Source of the DNA: Haloferax volcanii DS2
GTDB lineage: Archaea > Halobacteriota > Halobacteria > Halobacteriales > Haloferacaceae
Direction of reading: 5' to 3'
NCBI RefSeq assembly: GCF_000025685.1
Contig: NC_013967.1
Coordinates: forward strand, 1,860,001 to 1,892,000
Length of the DNA: 32,000 bases
The position numbers were made by a program, and so were the translations under genes. Of this stretch, positions 26,684 to 31,897 are shown one piece after another. The notes beneath the pieces were generated by a model, which saw only the letters and a list, made by a program, of their open reading frames with translations, did no database searches and had not been told where the DNA came from. Numbering within the stretch: the stretch's first letter is position 1; every line of letters starts with the position of its first letter.

Positions 26684-27007
26684 ATGGGTCGAACGGTTTC
26701 ACTCTCCGGGACGTGGTTCAGCTATCTGCTGTACGCGTTCCAACTGACTGCGCTCGCGTTGGTGCTCGTGTTCGTCGTGCCCGCGCTCCAGTACCCGGTC
26801 AATCTCTTCTTGGGCGGACTGTTCGCCGCGGTCGTCTTCGCGTCGGGAGTCGCGCTGTGGCGGCGCGCGACCGGACGGGAGGAAGGAAGTCGGCTCGGAA
26901 CCGCCGAAGACATCACCTACGACCCGTTTGCGGACCCCGGGCAGGCCGCCCGCGACCGGTGGGAACGGGCCGTTCGACGGCTTCCCGGTTCGGACGACGA
27001 GGAGTGA
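26684..27007 (+). CDS. hypothetical two-helix membrane protein
   Basis: MGRTVSLSGTWFSYLLYAFQLTALALVLVFVV... with an acidic C-terminus. ATG 26684 preferred over the TTG at 26654. Confidence 0.55.
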   Translation: MGRTVSLSGTWFSYLLYAFQLTALALVLVFVVPALQYPVNLFLGGLFAAVVFASGVALWRRATGREEGSRLGTAEDITYDPFADPGQAARDRWERAVRRLPGSDDEE

Positions 27008-27141
27008 ACTCCCGAAGGTGTGAGGGCGGTCGGTGGCTCACGAACGACCTCCTCCGTCGGTCTGCCGCCTCCACCGAGTGATACGAACGAACTGCTCCAT
27101 CGTTCCCGCAGCCAGAGCACCGACGACCGAGCGAATCCGCT

Positions 27142-27286
27142 GTTCGACGGCGACGACTCGAATCCGGTCGCGCTCGACGACGCGGTCACACCGATGCGAC
27201 GGACACAATCACTAACTCAATTGACGTTGGATACTGTTAGCTGTGTTCCCAATCTCACACCTGTGGTCCGGCGTGTCCCTCCAAAC
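27142..27286 (+). repeat. left copy of imperfect direct repeat flanking the orc1 module
   Basis: Shares three blocks with 30079-30197: the 11-mer GTTCGACGGCG, a 38-nt block (27181-27217, 32 of 38 identical including ACGGACACAATCA and CTAACT), and a 19-nt block GTGGTCYGGCGTGTCSCTC (27263-27281, 17 of 19). Inter-block spacing is 45 nt here versus 44 nt on the right. Confidence 0.7.
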
Positions 27287-27467
27287 ACCCCCCTTTCCCG
27301 TCGGCGTGCGCGAAACGCACGTGACCGGGCTCGTGGTGCTCATCGGACTCATCTTCGGCGGGATGTATCTGTACACTCGCTGGCGTCAGTATCTTCGGTA
27401 GACACAGCGACGGACCGCGTTGCACCCTCCCGACGAACAATACCACCGTCGAACTGACGGCCGAGTC

Positions 27468-27596
27468 AGAGAGTACAGTTCGTACGCTCTCCTCTCTGCT
27501 GCCTCGCGCTTTCAACGACGAACGAACGCAGGCGAACTGTACTCTCTCCCGTCCCGCTTCGGCCATCGCGTTCCACGTTAGAGAGTACATTTCGTA
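27468..27596. repeat. 15-bp perfect inverted repeat AGAGAGTACAGTTCG / CGAACTGTACTCTCT plus a third direct copy
   Basis: Arms at 27468-27482 and 27533-27547 (50-nt spacer). Third copy AGAGAGTACATTTCG at 27580-27594 (1 mismatch). Each direct copy continues with TAYGCTYTCCTC. Confidence 0.7.
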
Positions 27597-27606
27597 TGCT
27601 TTCCTC

Positions 27607-27639
27607 AATATGAAGCGTTCTACGAGGGGGTGGGTGTGG
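27607..27639 (+). repeat. degenerate ORB-like element
   Basis: AATATGAAGCG, then a 6-nt insertion, then the G-string GAGGGGGTGGGTGTGG. Confidence 0.4.
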
Positions 27640-27800
27640 AGTTTTGAATGTATCGCGTTGTACAGGTCACCGCAGATGCGATGACGACATGACGGTTCCT
27701 CGGGGAGTACCGTTTCGAGTGTATCTGATCTCGTGTCCTTCGCATCGGCCTCGGAGTCTCTGTTTCCGATTTCGTGTGTACCACTTCCTGAGACGCATCT

Positions 27801-27823
27801 AAACAGATGAAGTCGTGGGGGTC
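27801..27823 (+). repeat. ORB element
   Basis: AAACAGATGAAGTCGTGGGGGTC. Confidence 0.8.
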
Positions 27824-27915
27824 AGATTTTCGTCCCGGATTCTCAGAACGATTTCTTTGCAGTCTATTTCCTTCGTCTCCGGTATACGAACTGGTTCAGT
27901 TTACAGTTTGGTTGT

Positions 27916-27939
27916 CACCCCCCATCGCTTCATGTGTTC
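27916..27939 (-). repeat. ORB element (inverted)
   Basis: The reverse complement reads GAACACATGAAGCGATGGGGGGTG. Confidence 0.8.
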
Positions 27940-28046
27940 TTGTGGTTCGTCTCTATCCACAGCAGCGCTGCACTACCACCGGTATCTCCGTCTCGAACTG
28001 GCTTCGACTCGAAGATATTGGCATCTTGAACCCCTGTATGGGTGCT

Positions 28047-28068
28047 AAACACATGAAGTGGTGGGGGT
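28047..28068 (+). repeat. ORB element
   Basis: AAACACATGAAGTGGTGGGGGT. Confidence 0.8.
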
Positions 28069-28130
28069 AGAACGATTACCAAATCCTCTCGGCTACCTGA
28101 ACAGCCATGACCAACAATGTTGGAGACTCT

Positions 28131-28154
28131 CCCACCCCACCACTTCATCTGTTC
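28131..28154 (-). repeat. ORB element (inverted)
   Basis: The reverse complement reads GAACAGATGAAGTGGTGGGGTGGG. Confidence 0.8.
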
Positions 28155-28255
28155 TGATTATCTGCACTGTTTCTGTGTGGTTTGGGGGCTCAATAGTTCG
28201 GGTGGTCGCTGGCTCTTAACCATCATTGTCAGTCGTAGACAGATCACACAGCATA

Positions 28256-28276
28256 GAACAGATGAAGCCACGGGGT
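28256..28276 (+). repeat. ORB element
   Basis: GAACAGATGAAGCCACGGGGT. Confidence 0.7.
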
Positions 28277-28295
28277 TCTTCACTTATATATTCGG

Positions 28296-28323
28296 AGAAC
28301 AGATGAAACAGATGAACCGGTGG
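28296..28323 (+). repeat. tandem ORB half-sites without G-string
   Basis: AGAACAGATGAA-ACAGATGAA-CCGGTGG, just upstream of the orc1 promoter. Confidence 0.55.
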
Positions 28324-28353
28324 ATATATCTGGTATACAGGTCTGCAACACGT

Positions 28354-29583
28354 ATGGGATCCTTCGAGTTCTCACAATCAAATCAGATCTTCAAAAATCG
28401 GGATGTGCTACGTGAGGATTATACCCCCGAAGAACTCGTTGGCCGGGATGAAGAACTGAGTGAGTATCACTCCGCTCTCCAGCCGGTAATCAACAACGAA
28501 CTCCCGTCGAACATCTTTCTGTACGGCAAGTCCGGTGTCGGGAAAACAGCCGCAACACGATTCTTACTGGATCGGCTCCAAGACGCCGCTCGATCGATTC
28601 ACGACCTCGACTTGCACGCGGTACGGATCAACTGTGACGGACTCAACACGAGCTATCAAGTCGCCGTAACGATCATTAACCGTCTGCGTAGTCCGGAAGA
28701 TCAGATTCCCATGACCGGCTATCCACAGTCGAAGGTGTACCAGTTCCTGTGGGAAGAACTCGATCAGTACGGGACCATACTCATCATCCTCGACGAGGTC
28801 GACCACGTCAACGACGACTCACTTCTGTATCAGATTCCGCGCGCACGAGACAACGGTTACGTCACGTCAGCGAAGATCGGGCTGATCGGTATTTCGAACG
28901 ATCTGTCGTACCGAGAAGGGCTTTCGGCAAAGGTCCAATCGAGTCTGTGCGAAAAAGAGGTCTATTTCCCACCGTACGATGCGGGAGAACTCCGTAAAGT
29001 GCTCGAACAACGAACCCAAGTCGCCTTCCGTGATGACGCTCTCTCGGAGGACGTCATCCCGCTTTGTGCCGCCTATGGTGCGAAGGATTCGGGTGACGCT
29101 CGACAGGCGATTAATCTCCTGTTGGAGGCGGGGGATATCGCACGGAACGAGAACGCACCACAGGTAACGAAACCGCACGTCGACCAAGCCAAACGAAAGC
29201 TCGAATCCGACCAAATCACGACTGGGGTGTCGAAGCTCACAGAGCACGCCCGACTGACGCTGTACGCACTTACGACGTTCGCCGCAGACGGTGAGACTCC
29301 AGTCACTTCACCGACAATCCGCGAACGCTACCTCGCACTCTGCAGTTCGAGTGGCATCGACCCGCTTTCACATCGGCAGATGCAAAGTCATCTCTCCGAG
29401 CTGAAGATGATGGGTGTCATTACGGGCAAAGAGCGGAATCTGGGTCGTCGCGGCGGAAAGAAGGTGCTGTACGGACTCAACTACGACCTCGGGTTAATTA
29501 CGGAAACCCTCGCCGACACGATCGATGAAATCGGCGTCCACCGCTCGATTCAATCGTTCGCCAAGAACTGCTCGGAGCAGTAA
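28354..29583 (+). CDS. orc1: Orc1/Cdc6 replication initiator
   Basis: LVGRDEEL, Walker A GKSGVGKTA, Walker B ILDEVD, sensor and arginine-finger region, and a C-terminal winged helix. Start set at ATG 28354 (MGSFEFSQSNQIF...), about 25 nt after GATATATC. The track ORF start at 28117 would read through ORB repeats. GC is visibly lower than in the core genes. Confidence 0.9.
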   Translation: MGSFEFSQSNQIFKNRDVLREDYTPEELVGRDEELSEYHSALQPVINNELPSNIFLYGKSGVGKTAATRFLLDRLQDAARSIHDLDLHAVRINCDGLNTSYQVAVTIINRLRSPEDQIPMTGYPQSKVYQFLWEELDQYGTILIILDEVDHVNDDSLLYQIPRARDNGYVTSAKIGLIGISNDLSYREGLSAKVQSSLCEKEVYFPPYDAGELRKVLEQRTQVAFRDDALSEDVIPLCAAYGAKDSGDARQAINLLLEAGDIARNENAPQVTKPHVDQAKRKLESDQITTGVSKLTEHARLTLYALTTFAADGETPVTSPTIRERYLALCSSSGIDPLSHRQMQSHLSELKMMGVITGKERNLGRRGGKKVLYGLNYDLGLITETLADTIDEIGVHRSIQSFAKNCSEQ

Positions 29584-29588
29584 CCCAC

Positions 29589-29618
29589 AGAACAGATGAA
29601 GTGACGGGGTGTGGGTGG
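29589..29618 (+). repeat. ORB element
   Basis: AGAACAGATGAAGTGACGGGGTGTGGGTGG, 6 nt after the orc1 stop codon. Confidence 0.75.
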
Positions 29619-29644
29619 TCATGGCTCCGTTCTGTCTCTCGAAA

Positions 29645-29665
29645 AAAACAGATGAAGTGGTGGCG
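29645..29665 (+). repeat. ORB element with interrupted G-string
   Basis: AAAACAGATGAAGTGGTGGCG. Confidence 0.65.
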
Positions 29666-29710
29666 TGCCCCGGTCCTCAACTGCCGTCTCACGCGACGTC
29701 TGCCTTCCTA

Positions 29711-29808
29711 CCCGAAACCGGTGTTTGGTCGTCTCGTCTCGCGCCGCGAGGGTTGCGTGCAGACCGTCAGGACCCAGTCCCGAAACCGGTGTCTGTTCGG
29801 CTCGTCTG
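29711..29808 (+). repeat. pair of ~29-nt direct repeats
   Basis: CCCGAAACCGGTGTTTGGTCGTCTCGTCT (29711-29739) versus CCCGAAACCGGTGTCTGTTCGGCTCGTCT (29779-29807). 26 of 29 positions are identical. Confidence 0.7.
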
Positions 29809-30021
29809 CTTCTGCGATCGACGCCTGGCTCCCATAGCCCCCGAATGCGGTGTCCACACGGATGTTTCTGACTCGGAAGCACGCGAAATGCCCACTCTGT
29901 ATCAGATCGTCTCAGTCTCTCAGTGGATCCTATCTGCTGCTGAAAGACAGTACATCTTGTGTGCCTTTCCCGACTGCATTGGCTTCGATTGGTCGACGAG
30001 TCACCCCATGCCGATATCGAA

Positions 30022-30048
30022 AGAACAGATGAAGTCATGGGGGGAGGG
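30022..30048 (+). repeat. ORB element
   Basis: AGAACAGATGAAGTCATGGGGGGAGGG. Confidence 0.8.
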
Positions 30049-30078
30049 AGGACCGGATCGGACCGTTCTGTGTGGCTC

Positions 30079-30197
30079 GTTCGACGGCGCGGTTACGGTG
30101 ATACGACGGACACAATCAACTAACTACATCGATGCTCGCACCGCTATTCGCGTCTCGCACTCTCCCCCCGTGGTCTGGCGTGTCGCTCGGTCCCCAA
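30079..30197 (+). repeat. right copy of imperfect direct repeat flanking the orc1 module
   Basis: 11-mer at 30079-30089, 38-nt block at 30088-30125 and 19-nt block at 30170-30188, matching 27142-27286 in the same order and orientation. Ends 7 nt before the glycosyltransferase stop codon. Confidence 0.7.
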
Positions 30198-30203
30198 CGA
30201 ACA

Positions 30204-30875
30204 TCACCACCGACCGTCGATAGCGCGCTCGTACGCCTTCTCCGCTTGGTCGGCGACGCTGTCCCAATCGTACCGCTCGGCGCGTTTCGTCGGTTCGGTC
30301 GGCGGCGTCTCGCCCCCGAGCGCTCGGGCTAACGACTCTGCGACCGAATCGACAGTCGGCTCAGCGAGATAGCCCGCGTCACCGATGACCTCACTCGCCG
30401 CCGATTCGGGGTGTTGAACGCCGATAACCGTACAGTCGGCGGCCATCGCCTCGGCGTAGGTGATGCCGAATCCCTCTCGTGTGCTCGGAGAGGCGAACAC
30501 GTCCGCGGCGCGCATCTGGCCCAACACGTCCTCGTACTCGTCGAGGAATCCAAGCAGGCTCACGCGGTCGGCGTGGTCCAACGAGTCGGCCTGTCGTTCG
30601 AGGCGGTCGGCCTCCGGGCCGTCGCCGACGACGCCCAGCGTCACGTCGTCGTAGTCGTCGGCCACGCGGTCGAACGCGTCGAGGAGGACGGAGACGTTCT
30701 TGTCGGCGATGAGTCGCCCGGCGAACAGCACGTCGAACGAGTCGCCCTCGTCGGGGAGCGGCGCGTTGCGAATCTGGTCGACGTCGATGCCGTTCGGGAC
30801 GACCTCGATCGTGTCCCTGTCCCGGCCGGTATCGGCGAGGCGGTCGGTGTTTTTGTGAACTCGCGGTGTTTCCAC
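30204..30875 (-). pseudogene. GT4-type glycosyltransferase, C-terminal (Glycos_transf_1) half only
   Basis: VVPNGIDVDQI...FDVLFAGRLIADKNV...LGVVGDGPE...FASPSTREGFGITYAEAMA covers the C-terminal Rossmann domain including the EX7E-type region. The ~150-170 aa N-terminal domain is absent. The frame closes at a stop 30 nt upstream of the GTG at 30875. Confidence 0.6.
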
Positions 30876-30934: not shown

Positions 30935-31897
30935 TCATCCGTCTTTCACGGGGACGGGGAATTTGTAGTCGTACGCCATGAGCGTATTCGAGCGTCGGAG
31001 GTCGTCGAGGAACGTTCGTGCATCGTAGTCACGAAGACGAATATACAGACCCGAGCCGTCTTCGATGCCCTTCTGTCTGACTGCGTAGTTGTCGTAGCCC
31101 AGTCGGTCGACCTCTGACTGGAGATGTTCGACGCACGACTCGGGAAAGCCGTGGGTCGCAAAGGAAACGCGCGGTGCGCCGCTGTCACGGATTGAGCAGT
31201 TCCCGTCGCCCCAGTACCAATGTAGGAGTGCTGTCTTGTCGAGGTGGAAGTCCTCCGGGACGATTTTTCGATTGTTCTTTTCGTCCCTGACTTCGTACCA
31301 CTCCTCGTACATTCGTTGGAGACGTGGTTGCGGTCGTGACGTGACTATCCACGAAGTGTAGTCTTCGTCGGTAAACTGATTCAGCCGAGTGAACGAGTTC
31401 GGCTGGGACTCCGGGAAGAACCCATCGGGAAGCTTTGTGATTAGTCGACGTGCGTGCTCCTCCGTCGTCGTCGAGAGTTGGAAGAAACACGACCCATCAT
31501 ACCGTGAGTGCAAGCACCCATCGCCGAGTAGTTCGCCTTGAATAACCGACACCTGGGATGGACTCAGTCCGATATCAGTAGTTTTCGGGAGTGAGATGGG
31601 ATCGGCACCCGCTTTTTCAAGGTGGAATCGGATTGCGACTGGGGAGGTGTCGTATCGGTCCGCAAGCGTCTGGAGGGAACTCCGACGCTCGTACGCTTCA
31701 ACCAGTTCCTCTCTTCGGTTCGCTAACTGCGTGTACGCCGGACCACCATTTCGCATTGTGACATCGTGGTCCTGTAGACGGCGGTGAATCGTCGGTGCAG
31801 AGACATCGAAGACCTCCGCAATCTCACGGAGCGACTGTCCCGCTTCATAGCGCTCAATGAGTTCGTCAACTCGCTCGTCGAGCCACTCGTACCGCAT
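30935..31897 (-). CDS. LAGLIDADG-type homing-endonuclease-like protein with two N-terminal HTH modules
   Basis: 320 aa. Two sigma-70-region-4 / resolvase-like HTH repeats (GQSLREIAEVFDVSAPTIHRRL and SSLQTLADRYDTSPVAIRFHL). These are followed by IQGELLGDGCL and LLHWYWGDGNCS, which match the two LAGLIDADG motifs of a double-motif enzyme. GC is lower than in the core genes. Confidence 0.65.
   Translation of the reverse strand: MRYEWLDERVDELIERYEAGQSLREIAEVFDVSAPTIHRRLQDHDVTMRNGGPAYTQLANRREELVEAYERRSSLQTLADRYDTSPVAIRFHLEKAGADPISLPKTTDIGLSPSQVSVIQGELLGDGCLHSRYDGSCFFQLSTTTEEHARRLITKLPDGFFPESQPNSFTRLNQFTDEDYTSWIVTSRPQPRLQRMYEEWYEVRDEKNNRKIVPEDFHLDKTALLHWYWGDGNCSIRDSGAPRVSFATHGFPESCVEHLQSEVDRLGYDNYAVRQKGIEDGSGLYIRLRDYDARTFLDDLRRSNTLMAYDYKFPVPVKDG

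What the first reader, a model, noticed from the sequence alone, without database searches (positions are those of the whole stretch)
27601..30050. Accessory replication origin: orc1/cdc6 between two ORB clusters (ten copies of ACAGATGAAG-N4-5-G-string)
I count ten copies of a ~20-nt motif with consensus rAACAsATGAAGynnyGGGGG, starting at 27607, 27801, 27916(-), 28047, 28131(-), 28256, 28296, 29589, 29645 and 30022. The pairs 27801/27916 and 28047/28131 are inverted, with G-strings pointing inward across 92-bp and 62-bp spacers. Those spacers are much more AT-rich than the genome, so they are candidate duplex-unwinding elements. An intact Orc1/Cdc6 gene follows. ORBs with a G-string next to orc1/cdc6 are the established signature of haloarchaeal origins. 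Three things are unusual here. There are two possible unwinding regions. A second cluster of three ORBs, all in one orientation, lies downstream of the gene. The origin also sits inside an accessory, low-GC patch. The motif contains ATGAAG, so it spawns phantom ORFs (MKSWG..., MKWWG...) that gene callers may annotate.
Basis: partly seen in the sequence, partly recalled or inferred. Interest (0 to 1): 0.62.

Follow-up and report, generated by a model that had tools for sequence, protein, structure and literature searches.

The report
Silent orc4 origin cassette, Haloferax volcanii
This is the already-published orc4 (HVO_2042) locus of Haloferax volcanii: an initiator gene flanked by its own private binding-site repeats that looks like a replication origin, has failed the published origin tests, yet is conserved under strong selection.

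Summary
The repeats are real. Eight strong copies of AACAGATGAAG-N3-4-G-string, plus one degenerate tandem site, flank an intact Orc1/Cdc6 gene. Nothing similar occurs elsewhere in the 4.01 Mb genome. The tenth claimed copy (27607) is not an Orc4-type site.

The window is H. volcanii DS2 chromosome 1,860,001-1,892,000, and the gene is orc4 (HVO_2042). The locus is already published:
- Wu 2012 listed ORBs in both spacers flanking orc4.
- Norais 2007 and Yang 2015 found no ARS activity.
- Yang 2015 reports no replication-profile peak in wild-type or origin-deleted strains.
- Ausiannikava 2018 deleted orc4 freely.

New here:
- orc4 is under strong purifying selection (dN/dS 0.04), and its ORBs are footprinted in a relative at dS about 2.
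- Its ORB is a CG-to-AT variant of the AACAGCGGAA ORBs used by Orc3/megaplasmid initiators, matched by RRMRD-to-RQMQS in the recognition helix.
- The module sits in a variable slot after a glycosyltransferase gene, among relic ORBs of a second Orc family.
- The proposed unwinding spacers have the wrong geometry.

Best reading: a horizontally acquired, selectively maintained but dormant, self-restrained origin-initiator cassette.

The parts
27799..27822 (+). Orc4-type ORB (CTAAACAGATGAAGTCGTGGGGGT)
   Evidence: 36.8 bits on the PWM. Conserved in H. denitrificans.
27918..27941 (-). Orc4-type ORB, convergent with the previous one
   Evidence: 36.2 bits. Inverted-repeat pairs I5 and I7.
28045..28068 (+). 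Orc4-type ORB
   Evidence: 36.1 bits.
28133..28156 (-). Orc4-type ORB; the only minus-strand ORB also kept in G007
   Evidence: 39.5 bits. The G007 counterpart at L049:1760(-) scores 39.1 bits.
28254..28277 (+). Orc4-type ORB at -97 from the start codon
   Evidence: 34.3 bits. It sits at -98 in G007, surrounded by unalignable spacer.
28296..28327 (+). Degenerate tandem ORB (AACAGATGAAACAGATGAACCGGTGG) abutting a TATA-like ATATAT at 28325-28330; candidate autoregulatory operator
   Evidence: Almost identical in H. denitrificans and G007 at the same distance from the ATG. The operator role is inference.
28354..29583 (+). orc4 (HVO_2042), a 409-aa Orc1/Cdc6 protein
   Evidence: Pfam AAA_22, Cdc6_lid and Cdc6_C. 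TIGR02928 at 431 bits. Match to 2QBY_A at 1.8e-68. Coordinates match Hartman 2010 Table 4. dN/dS 0.04.
29588..29611 (+). Downstream ORB, 5 nt after the stop codon
   Evidence: 38.0 bits. At the same position in G007 (L049:3296).
29644..29667 (+). Downstream ORB
   Evidence: 37.8 bits. G007 counterpart at L049:3344.
30021..30044 (+). Downstream ORB
   Evidence: 39.3 bits. G007 has a third downstream ORB at L049:3446.
27469..27599 (.). Three copies of a second repeat, GAGAGTACRTTTCGTRTGC (27469+, 27528-, 27581+). This is the ORB type of a different Orc family ('OrcX'), and no orcX gene exists in this genome.
   Evidence: 11 of 11 OrcX loci across Halobacteria carry this repeat on both sides of the gene.
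27417..27457 (+). Left copy of a ~45-bp direct repeat at the insertion border (a degenerate duplicate of the 3' end of the glycosyltransferase gene)
   Evidence: Alignment of both junctions to the empty site in G015/G010.
30179..30222 (+). Right copy of the border repeat; contains the last 8 codons and the stop of the minus-strand glycosyltransferase gene
27171..27281 (+). Left copy of a 113-bp, 73%-identical direct repeat; the partner lies at 30078-30188
   Evidence: E = 1e-8 against the whole genome. In H. denitrificans the full 435-bp segment is present on both sides.

Best explanation
Window 27458-30178 is a ~2.7-kb horizontally acquired origin-initiator cassette of Haloferax volcanii DS2. 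It consists of orc4 (HVO_2042) plus eight high-affinity-looking, locus-private Orc4 recognition boxes.

Origin of the cassette. It derives from the replicon-origin family used by pHV4/orc3 and by Halorussus/Haladaptatus megaplasmids, whose ORBs read AACAGCGGAA-N3-GTGGGGT on both sides of the gene. In Orc4 the box has switched to AACAGATGAAG. The winged-helix recognition helix has changed in parallel from RRMRD to RQMQS. The pair is therefore probably orthogonal to the resident Orc3/ori-pHV4.

Proposed mechanism (inferred). Orc4 binds these boxes. The promoter-proximal boxes (-97, -57/-48, next to the TATA-like element) autoregulate orc4. The three same-orientation boxes after the stop codon act like Har. 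hispanica oriC2D, soaking up initiator.

Activity. No strongly AT-rich unwinding element lies between divergent boxes. The module does not fire as an origin under any condition tested so far, so it is a dormant or self-restrained origin.

What is shown: the sequence anatomy, its uniqueness, its conservation, the purifying selection and the insertion borders.
What is taken from the literature: lack of ARS activity, lack of a replication-profile peak, and dispensability.
What is inferred: Orc4-ORB binding, autoregulation, titration, orthogonality and dormancy.
For: - Private motif.
- Intact Orc1/Cdc6 protein.
- Closest paralog is Orc3 of pHV4 (55%). Its active origin has the same two-sided ORB layout and a core differing at 4 of 11 positions.
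- Relatives at 55-64% identity on megaplasmids and in Halobacterium all use AACAGCGGAA boxes on both sides of the gene.
- Q344 in Orc4 replaces an Arg that is invariant in 11 CGG-type relatives.
- dN/dS is 0.042-0.043 at dS 0.15 and at dS about 2.
- ORBs, and their distances to the start and stop codons, are conserved in G007 while the rest of the spacers cannot be aligned.
- The cassette is present in 3 of 21 Haloferax species representatives and in none of the other sampled Halobacteria. Empty sites exist, and the borders are repeated.
- Literature: prediction (PMC3528665); ARS-negative (PMC1868953; PMC4595724); deletable (PMC6063281); precedent for a downstream titrating cluster (PMC3936714).
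Against: - No binding data exist for Orc4.
- Strong selection on the gene and boxes is odd for something that never fires, so some function is being exercised, and it need not be replication.
- In origin-deleted H. volcanii no peak appears here (PMC4595724 citing Hawkins 2013). This locus therefore does not behave like the H. mediterranei dormant origin that wakes up.
- The AT-richest 100 bp is only 59-60% AT, against 66-72% at four proven origins. Active oriC3, however, is also 59%.
- A 2026 paper points out that Orc4 has Gln where initiators have a base-contacting Arg, as in the non-initiator Orc1-2 of S. islandicus (PMC12890983).
- The helix/box co-variation is a single evolutionary event. 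The Halobacterium relative has Ser, not Arg, at the first of the two positions.
Confidence: 0.55

Rival explanations
1. Active accessory chromosomal origin. Orc4 assembles on the inverted ORBs, melts one of the AT-richer spacers and loads MCM during normal growth.
For: The anatomy is canonical apart from the weak DUE. Active oriC3 has an equally weak AT maximum. Neither published ARS construct contained the three downstream boxes: the Yang 2015 fragment spans 26876-29595 and cuts the first one, and the Norais fragment ends at the BglII site at 28385.
Against: There is no ARS activity in two hosts, and no replication-profile peak in wild-type or origin-less strains (PMC1868953, PMC4595724). orc4 deletion has no reported phenotype (PMC6063281). 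By precedent, a downstream ORB cluster represses rather than enables (PMC3936714). The proposed unwinding spacers lie between convergent boxes, the opposite of four proven origins in this genome.
Confidence: 0.07
2. Orc4 is no longer an initiator. It is a sequence-specific DNA-binding AAA+ protein kept for another job, such as a self-contained regulatory, silencing or architectural module, or control of neighbouring glycosylation genes. This would be analogous to the non-initiator Orc1-2 of Sulfolobus.
For: Gln sits at the base-contacting Arg position (PMC12890983; alignments). Strong purifying selection persists despite no detectable origin activity. Conserved boxes sit on the orc4 promoter.
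Against: No Orc4-type box exists anywhere else in the genome (next best 19.4 bits), so there is no regulon. The three downstream boxes lie between convergent gene ends where there is no promoter to control. The layout copies that of active megaplasmid-type origins. The Gln is matched by a change in the box, which points to switched rather than lost specificity.
Confidence: 0.25
3. Decaying relic of an integrated plasmid replicon with no present function.
For: The patch is accessory, low-GC and flanked by repeats. Relic ORBs of another Orc family lie next to it. The gene is dispensable in the laboratory (PMC6063281).
Against: dN/dS is 0.04 with saturated synonymous change. The 409-aa frame is intact in three species. 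The boxes are conserved where the spacers are not.
Confidence: 0.08

Closest known systems
H. volcanii ori-pHV4 / orc3 (Norais 2007 'ori-pHV4-2'; active origin)
   Same: Orc3 is the closest paralog (55% aa). Its ORBs have an 11-nt core, a 2-3-nt gap and a GTGGTGT/G-string, and they occur on both sides of the initiator gene. The core is AACAGCGGACA against AACAGATGAAG for orc4.
   Different: ori-pHV4 has a 71% AT DUE between divergent ORBs and shows ARS activity. The orc4 locus reaches at most 59-60% AT and shows no ARS activity. The box and the recognition helix have both diverged (PMC1868953).
Haloarcula hispanica oriC2-cdc6E with the downstream ORB-rich region oriC2D (Wu et al. 2014, PMC3936714)
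   Same: An initiator gene is sandwiched between an upstream ORB set and a second cluster of the same ORBs directly after the gene.
   Different: oriC2 is an active origin, and oriC2D has 11 ORBs in 722 bp. Here there are 3 ORBs in about 460 bp, and no activity to repress has been demonstrated.
Putative or dormant origins of Haloferax (H. mediterranei oriC4-cdc6H; H. volcanii oriP2-orc13 and oriP3-orc7; Yang et al. 2015, PMC4595724)
   Same: The initiator lies next to inverted ORBs, with no replication-profile peak in the wild type. orc4 was explicitly listed with these.
   Different: Those fragments replicate autonomously or can be activated. The orc4 fragment gave no transformants.
Sulfolobus islandicus Orc1-2 (non-initiator Orc1/Cdc6 paralog)
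   Same: Gln replaces the base-contacting Arg of the winged helix (PMC12890983).
   Different: Orc4 keeps a full array of private ORBs around its own gene and has no dispersed target sites.

Membership tests
Haloarchaeal orc1/cdc6-adjacent ORB origin (prediction criteria of Wu et al. 2012) | Adjacent Orc1/Cdc6 protein longer than 300 aa with AAA+ and winged-helix domains | tested here: met
   The protein is 409 aa, with Walker A GKSGVGKT and Walker B ILDEVD.
Haloarchaeal orc1/cdc6-adjacent ORB origin (prediction criteria of Wu et al. 2012) | At least two ORB-like repeats with a G-string, in inverted orientation, in the adjacent intergenic region | tested here: met
   There are five strong upstream ORBs (three plus-strand, two minus-strand), one degenerate tandem, and three downstream ORBs.
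Experimentally defined archaeal replication origin | AT-rich duplex-unwinding element between divergent ORBs | tested here: inconclusive
   Spacers between divergent pairs are 46% and 53% AT. The best 100-bp window is 59-60% AT, against 66-72% at oriC1, oriC2, ori-pHV1, ori-pHV3 and ori-pHV4, and 59% at oriC3. Norais 2007 states that the region lacks a DUE.
Experimentally defined archaeal replication origin | Autonomous replication (ARS) activity | not testable with these tools
   Published results are negative (PMC1868953; PMC4595724). Neither construct carried the downstream boxes.
Experimentally defined archaeal replication origin | Marker-frequency peak | not testable with these tools
The published result is negative, as reported in PMC4595724.
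Initiator-titrating downstream ORB cluster (oriC2D type) | A cluster of the initiator's own ORBs directly downstream of its gene | tested here: met
   Three ORBs of 38, 37.8 and 39.3 bits lie within 461 bp after the stop codon. Three are also kept in G007.
Initiator-titrating downstream ORB cluster (oriC2D type) | Removing the cluster raises origin activity or plasmid copy number | not tested
   This needs a bench experiment.

The most novel reading that the evidence does not exclude
Orc4 and its AACAGATGAAG boxes are a working, specificity-switched (orthogonal) initiator-origin pair. They evolved from the megaplasmid-type AACAGCGGAA system through Arg-to-Gln changes in the recognition helix. 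The pair is kept silent on the chromosome by its own promoter-proximal and downstream boxes. It fires only in special circumstances, such as stress, after excision as a ~3-kb circle, or after transfer to a new host. That would explain the strong purifying selection despite every laboratory origin test being negative. The locus is also a hot spot where whole orc/ORB modules replace one another: orc4 sits inside relic OrcX-type boxes, and an intact orcX occupies the same slot in another Haloferax.
Probability: 0.25. Interest if true: 0.55.

Novelty: already known. Interest (0 to 1): 0.3.

Why it matters
As a discovery it adds little. This is a named locus in a model archaeon. It was predicted as an origin in 2012, tested negative in 2007 and 2015, and is routinely used as a 'neutral' deletion control.

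Three points found here may still be useful.

1. The 'neutral' orc4 is under strong purifying selection together with its boxes. Using it as an inert control therefore deserves caution, and its real role is an open question.
2. The CG-to-AT box change, paired with RRMRD-to-RQMQS in the recognition helix, gives a compact natural test case for how archaeal Orc1/Cdc6 proteins read DNA and how new, compatible origin-initiator pairs arise.
3. The slot after the glycosyltransferase gene holds different orc cassettes in different Haloferax species. This is a concrete example of origin-module turnover.

Tried and rejected
- Site 27607 as an ORB: rejected. It scores -47.7 bits and is absent in G007. 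It follows an OrcX-type repeat, and in other genomes that repeat is itself followed by G-strings.
- Convergent spacers as unwinding elements: rejected on geometry and on modest AT content.
- Dispersed Orc4 regulon: none found.
- Viral source: haloarchaeal virus Orc proteins are at most 28% identical.
- Plasmid-borne orc4: none. The best plasmid hits are 60-64% identical megaplasmid initiators. In 5.8 billion protein clusters only two clusters are 89% identical or better, both from Haloferax.
- Known RNA families in 26.8-30.4 kb: none.
- Clean Arg/Gln-to-CG/AT co-variation at the first helix position: not clean, because Halobacterium has Ser there. Only the second position (Q344 against an invariant R) holds.
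- Placing the left end of the Norais 1.7-kb ApaI-BglII fragment: impossible, because there is no ApaI site in 24-32 kb.
- Hvo versus H. denitrificans footprinting: uninformative, because the core spacer is about 97% identical throughout.
Full report
**Identity of the window.** The genome held for this window has five contigs of 2,847,757, 85,092, 6,359, 437,906 and 635,786 bp. The window is contig 1, positions 1,860,001-1,892,000. From my own knowledge these sizes are those of Haloferax volcanii DS2. Table 4 of the genome paper places orc4 (HVO_2042) at 1,888,354-1,889,583, which is window 28354-29583 (PMC2841640). The 488-aa ORF from 28117 is an over-extension. Pfam domains begin about residue 106 of that frame. 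The 409-aa product from 28354 aligns from its residue 10 with S. solfataricus Orc1-1 (2QBY_A, E = 1.8e-68) and scores 431 bits on TIGR02928.

- ACASATGAAG with up to 1 mismatch gives 10 matches, all in 27803-30034, against 1.34 expected.
- With a G-run attached the motif occurs seven times in the 4.01 Mb genome, all here.
- A 24-nt PWM gives eight sites of 34-39.5 bits (28.6-37.8 leave-one-out). The next best site in the genome scores 19.4 bits.
- The site at 28296 is an overlapping degenerate tandem.
- The site at 27607 is not an Orc4-type box (-47.7 bits).
- The orientation map is > < > < > >> [orc4] > > >.

**It is already published.**
- Wu et al. 2012 state that ORB elements occur in both intergenic regions flanking orc4 of H. 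volcanii. Their supplementary file prints exactly these two spacers (PMC3528665).
- Norais et al. 2007 used the orc4 spacer as a control. A 1.7-kb ApaI-BglII fragment gave no transformants, and the region 'does not feature a DUE'. The only BglII site is at 28385, 31 bp into orc4.
- Yang et al. 2015 listed orc4 among putative dormant origins: inverted ORBs, no peak in wild-type profiles, and no initiating activity in origin-deleted H. volcanii. They obtained no transformants with 'orc4+' in H. mediterranei. Their primers map to 26876-29595, so the fragment cuts the first downstream box and lacks the other two.
- Ausiannikava et al. 2018 deleted orc4 in 100 independent clones and describe it as not next to an origin and acquired by HGT.

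**The 'unusual' features are ordinary for this family.**
- Orc4's closest paralog is Orc3 of pHV4 (55%). That origin has 14 boxes of AACAGCGGACA-N2-3-GTGGTGT, seven upstream and six downstream of orc3.
- Relatives at 60-64% identity are the initiators of 300-590-kb Halorussus, Halomicrococcus and Haladaptatus megaplasmids. A Halobacterium relative is 55% identical. All carry AACAGCGGAA(A/G)-N3-(G)TGGGG boxes on both sides of the gene.
- In Har. hispanica, the ORB cluster downstream of cdc6E (oriC2D) negatively controls oriC2, probably by titrating the initiator. The authors note that downstream ORBs are common (PMC3936714).

**The proposed unwinding elements are poorly supported.** At oriC1, oriC2, ori-pHV4 and ori-pHV1 of this genome the AT-richest 100 bp (66-71% AT) lies between divergent boxes whose G-tails point away from it. 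The correctly oriented spacers here (27942-28047 and 28157-28255) are 46% and 53% AT. The AT maximum (59-60%) is at 28214-28384, over the promoter-proximal boxes. Active oriC3 is no richer (59%), so this point is not decisive.

**New evidence that the module is maintained by selection.**
- Orthologs of at least 89% identity exist only in Haloferax. They occur in 3 of 21 species representatives (own genome; G002, which is H. denitrificans ATCC 35960; and G007) and in none of the other sampled Halobacteria.
- In 5.8 billion protein clusters there are just two such clusters, whose named members come from H. denitrificans, H. prahovense and Haloferax spp. AB510 and Atlit-19N. All sit on chromosome-sized contigs.
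- dN/dS is 0.043 against H. denitrificans (dS 0.15) and 0.042 against G007 (dS about 2.0, 88.8% aa identity).
- In G007 the spacers are otherwise unalignable, yet several elements persist: the minus-strand box, the box at -98 (here -97), the tandem at -56/-47 (here -57/-48) next to a TATA-like element, a box 8 nt after the stop (here 5-7), and two further downstream boxes. Four of them score 30-39 bits on the H. volcanii PWM.
- The H. denitrificans comparison is too close to be informative.

**Specificity switch (inference).** All CGG-type relatives have RRMRD (RSIRD in Halobacterium) in the winged-helix recognition helix. Orc4 orthologs have RQMQ(S/A). Q344 replaces an Arg that is invariant in eleven relatives. 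The box differs chiefly by CG to AT. A 2026 paper read the Gln as resembling the non-initiator Orc1-2 (PMC12890983). The matched change in the boxes suggests altered rather than lost recognition. This is a single evolutionary event and it is unproven.

**Context.**
- The patch is 48-58% GC against 66.6% for the chromosome.
- In G017 the epimerase gene abuts the glycosyltransferase (GT) gene. In G010 and G015, window 27171-27448 joins directly to 30178 onward.
- Aligning both junctions to the empty site shows a ~45-bp direct repeat (27417-27457 and 30179-30222). It contains the last eight codons and the stop of the minus-strand GT gene, so the cassette lies immediately after that gene.
- A further 113-bp repeat of 73% identity (27171-27281 and 30078-30188) brackets it. 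In H. denitrificans a 435-bp segment is duplicated on both sides.
- This pattern fits Campbell-type integration of a small circle. That reading is inference.

**A second origin type in the same slot.**
- The triple repeat GAGAGTACRTTTCGTRTGC (27469+, 27528-, 27581+, with a relic at 29946) occurs on the chromosome only here; one two-mismatch copy lies on pHV4.
- In Haloferax G001 the same slot holds a different Orc1/Cdc6 gene ('OrcX', 37% identical to Orc4) flanked by nine such repeats.
- In 11 of 11 OrcX loci from several haloarchaeal families, the repeat lies in direct orientation upstream and inverted downstream. It is sometimes followed by G-strings.
- It also appears next to Har. marismortui cdc6g in Wu 2012's supplement.
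- H. volcanii has no orcX. The orc4 module therefore sits among orphan OrcX-type boxes, which suggests that one initiator/box module replaced another.

**Verdict.** The finding is already known. The most likely reading is a horizontally acquired, selectively maintained but dormant or self-restrained origin-initiator cassette (0.55). The rivals are a non-initiator DNA-binding role (0.25), a decaying relic (0.08) and an active origin (0.07).

Noticed in passing
window 27469-27487(+), 27528-27546(-), 27581-27599(+), relic 29946-29964(+): The repeat GAGAGTACRTTTCGTRTGC is the ORB-type repeat of a different, widespread Orc1/Cdc6 family ('OrcX'; also seen next to Har. marismortui cdc6g). It flanks the gene in 11 of 11 OrcX loci examined. 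H. volcanii has these boxes but no orcX gene.
   Followed up: yes
L050:1425-2615 (G001, another Haloferax species), same slot between the 435-bp segment and the glycosyltransferase gene: An intact orcX gene with nine of its own repeats occupies the position that orc4 occupies in H. volcanii. The slot therefore holds alternative orc cassettes in different species and is empty in others (G010, G015, G017).
   Followed up: partly
window 30204-30875(-) and 30935-31897(-): The GT4 glycosyltransferase is only 223 aa here (C-terminal Glycos_transf_1 half). The orthologs in H. denitrificans and G001 are 347-393 aa. An HTH-LAGLIDADG ORF lies where the N-terminal half should be.
   Followed up: partly
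window 29711-29739 and 29779-29807 (weaker third copy near 29841): A direct repeat CCCGAAACCGGTGTYTGKTCG..CTCGTCT lies in the downstream spacer. H. denitrificans lacks exactly one 68-bp unit, as if lost by recombination between copies. Its function is unknown.
   Followed up: no
window 27306-27401(+): A 31-codon ORF (GTG start) encodes a single hydrophobic helix (…VTGLVVLIGLIFGGMYLYTRWRQYLR). It lies inside the 435-bp segment, which is conserved at 82-88% in several Haloferax genomes and duplicated in H. denitrificans. It may be a micro-protein.
   Followed up: no
window 27610-27800: About 190 bp of box-free spacer is roughly 97% identical between H. volcanii and H. denitrificans apart from a 20-bp indel, but it is absent from G007. 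This is unexplained.
   Followed up: no
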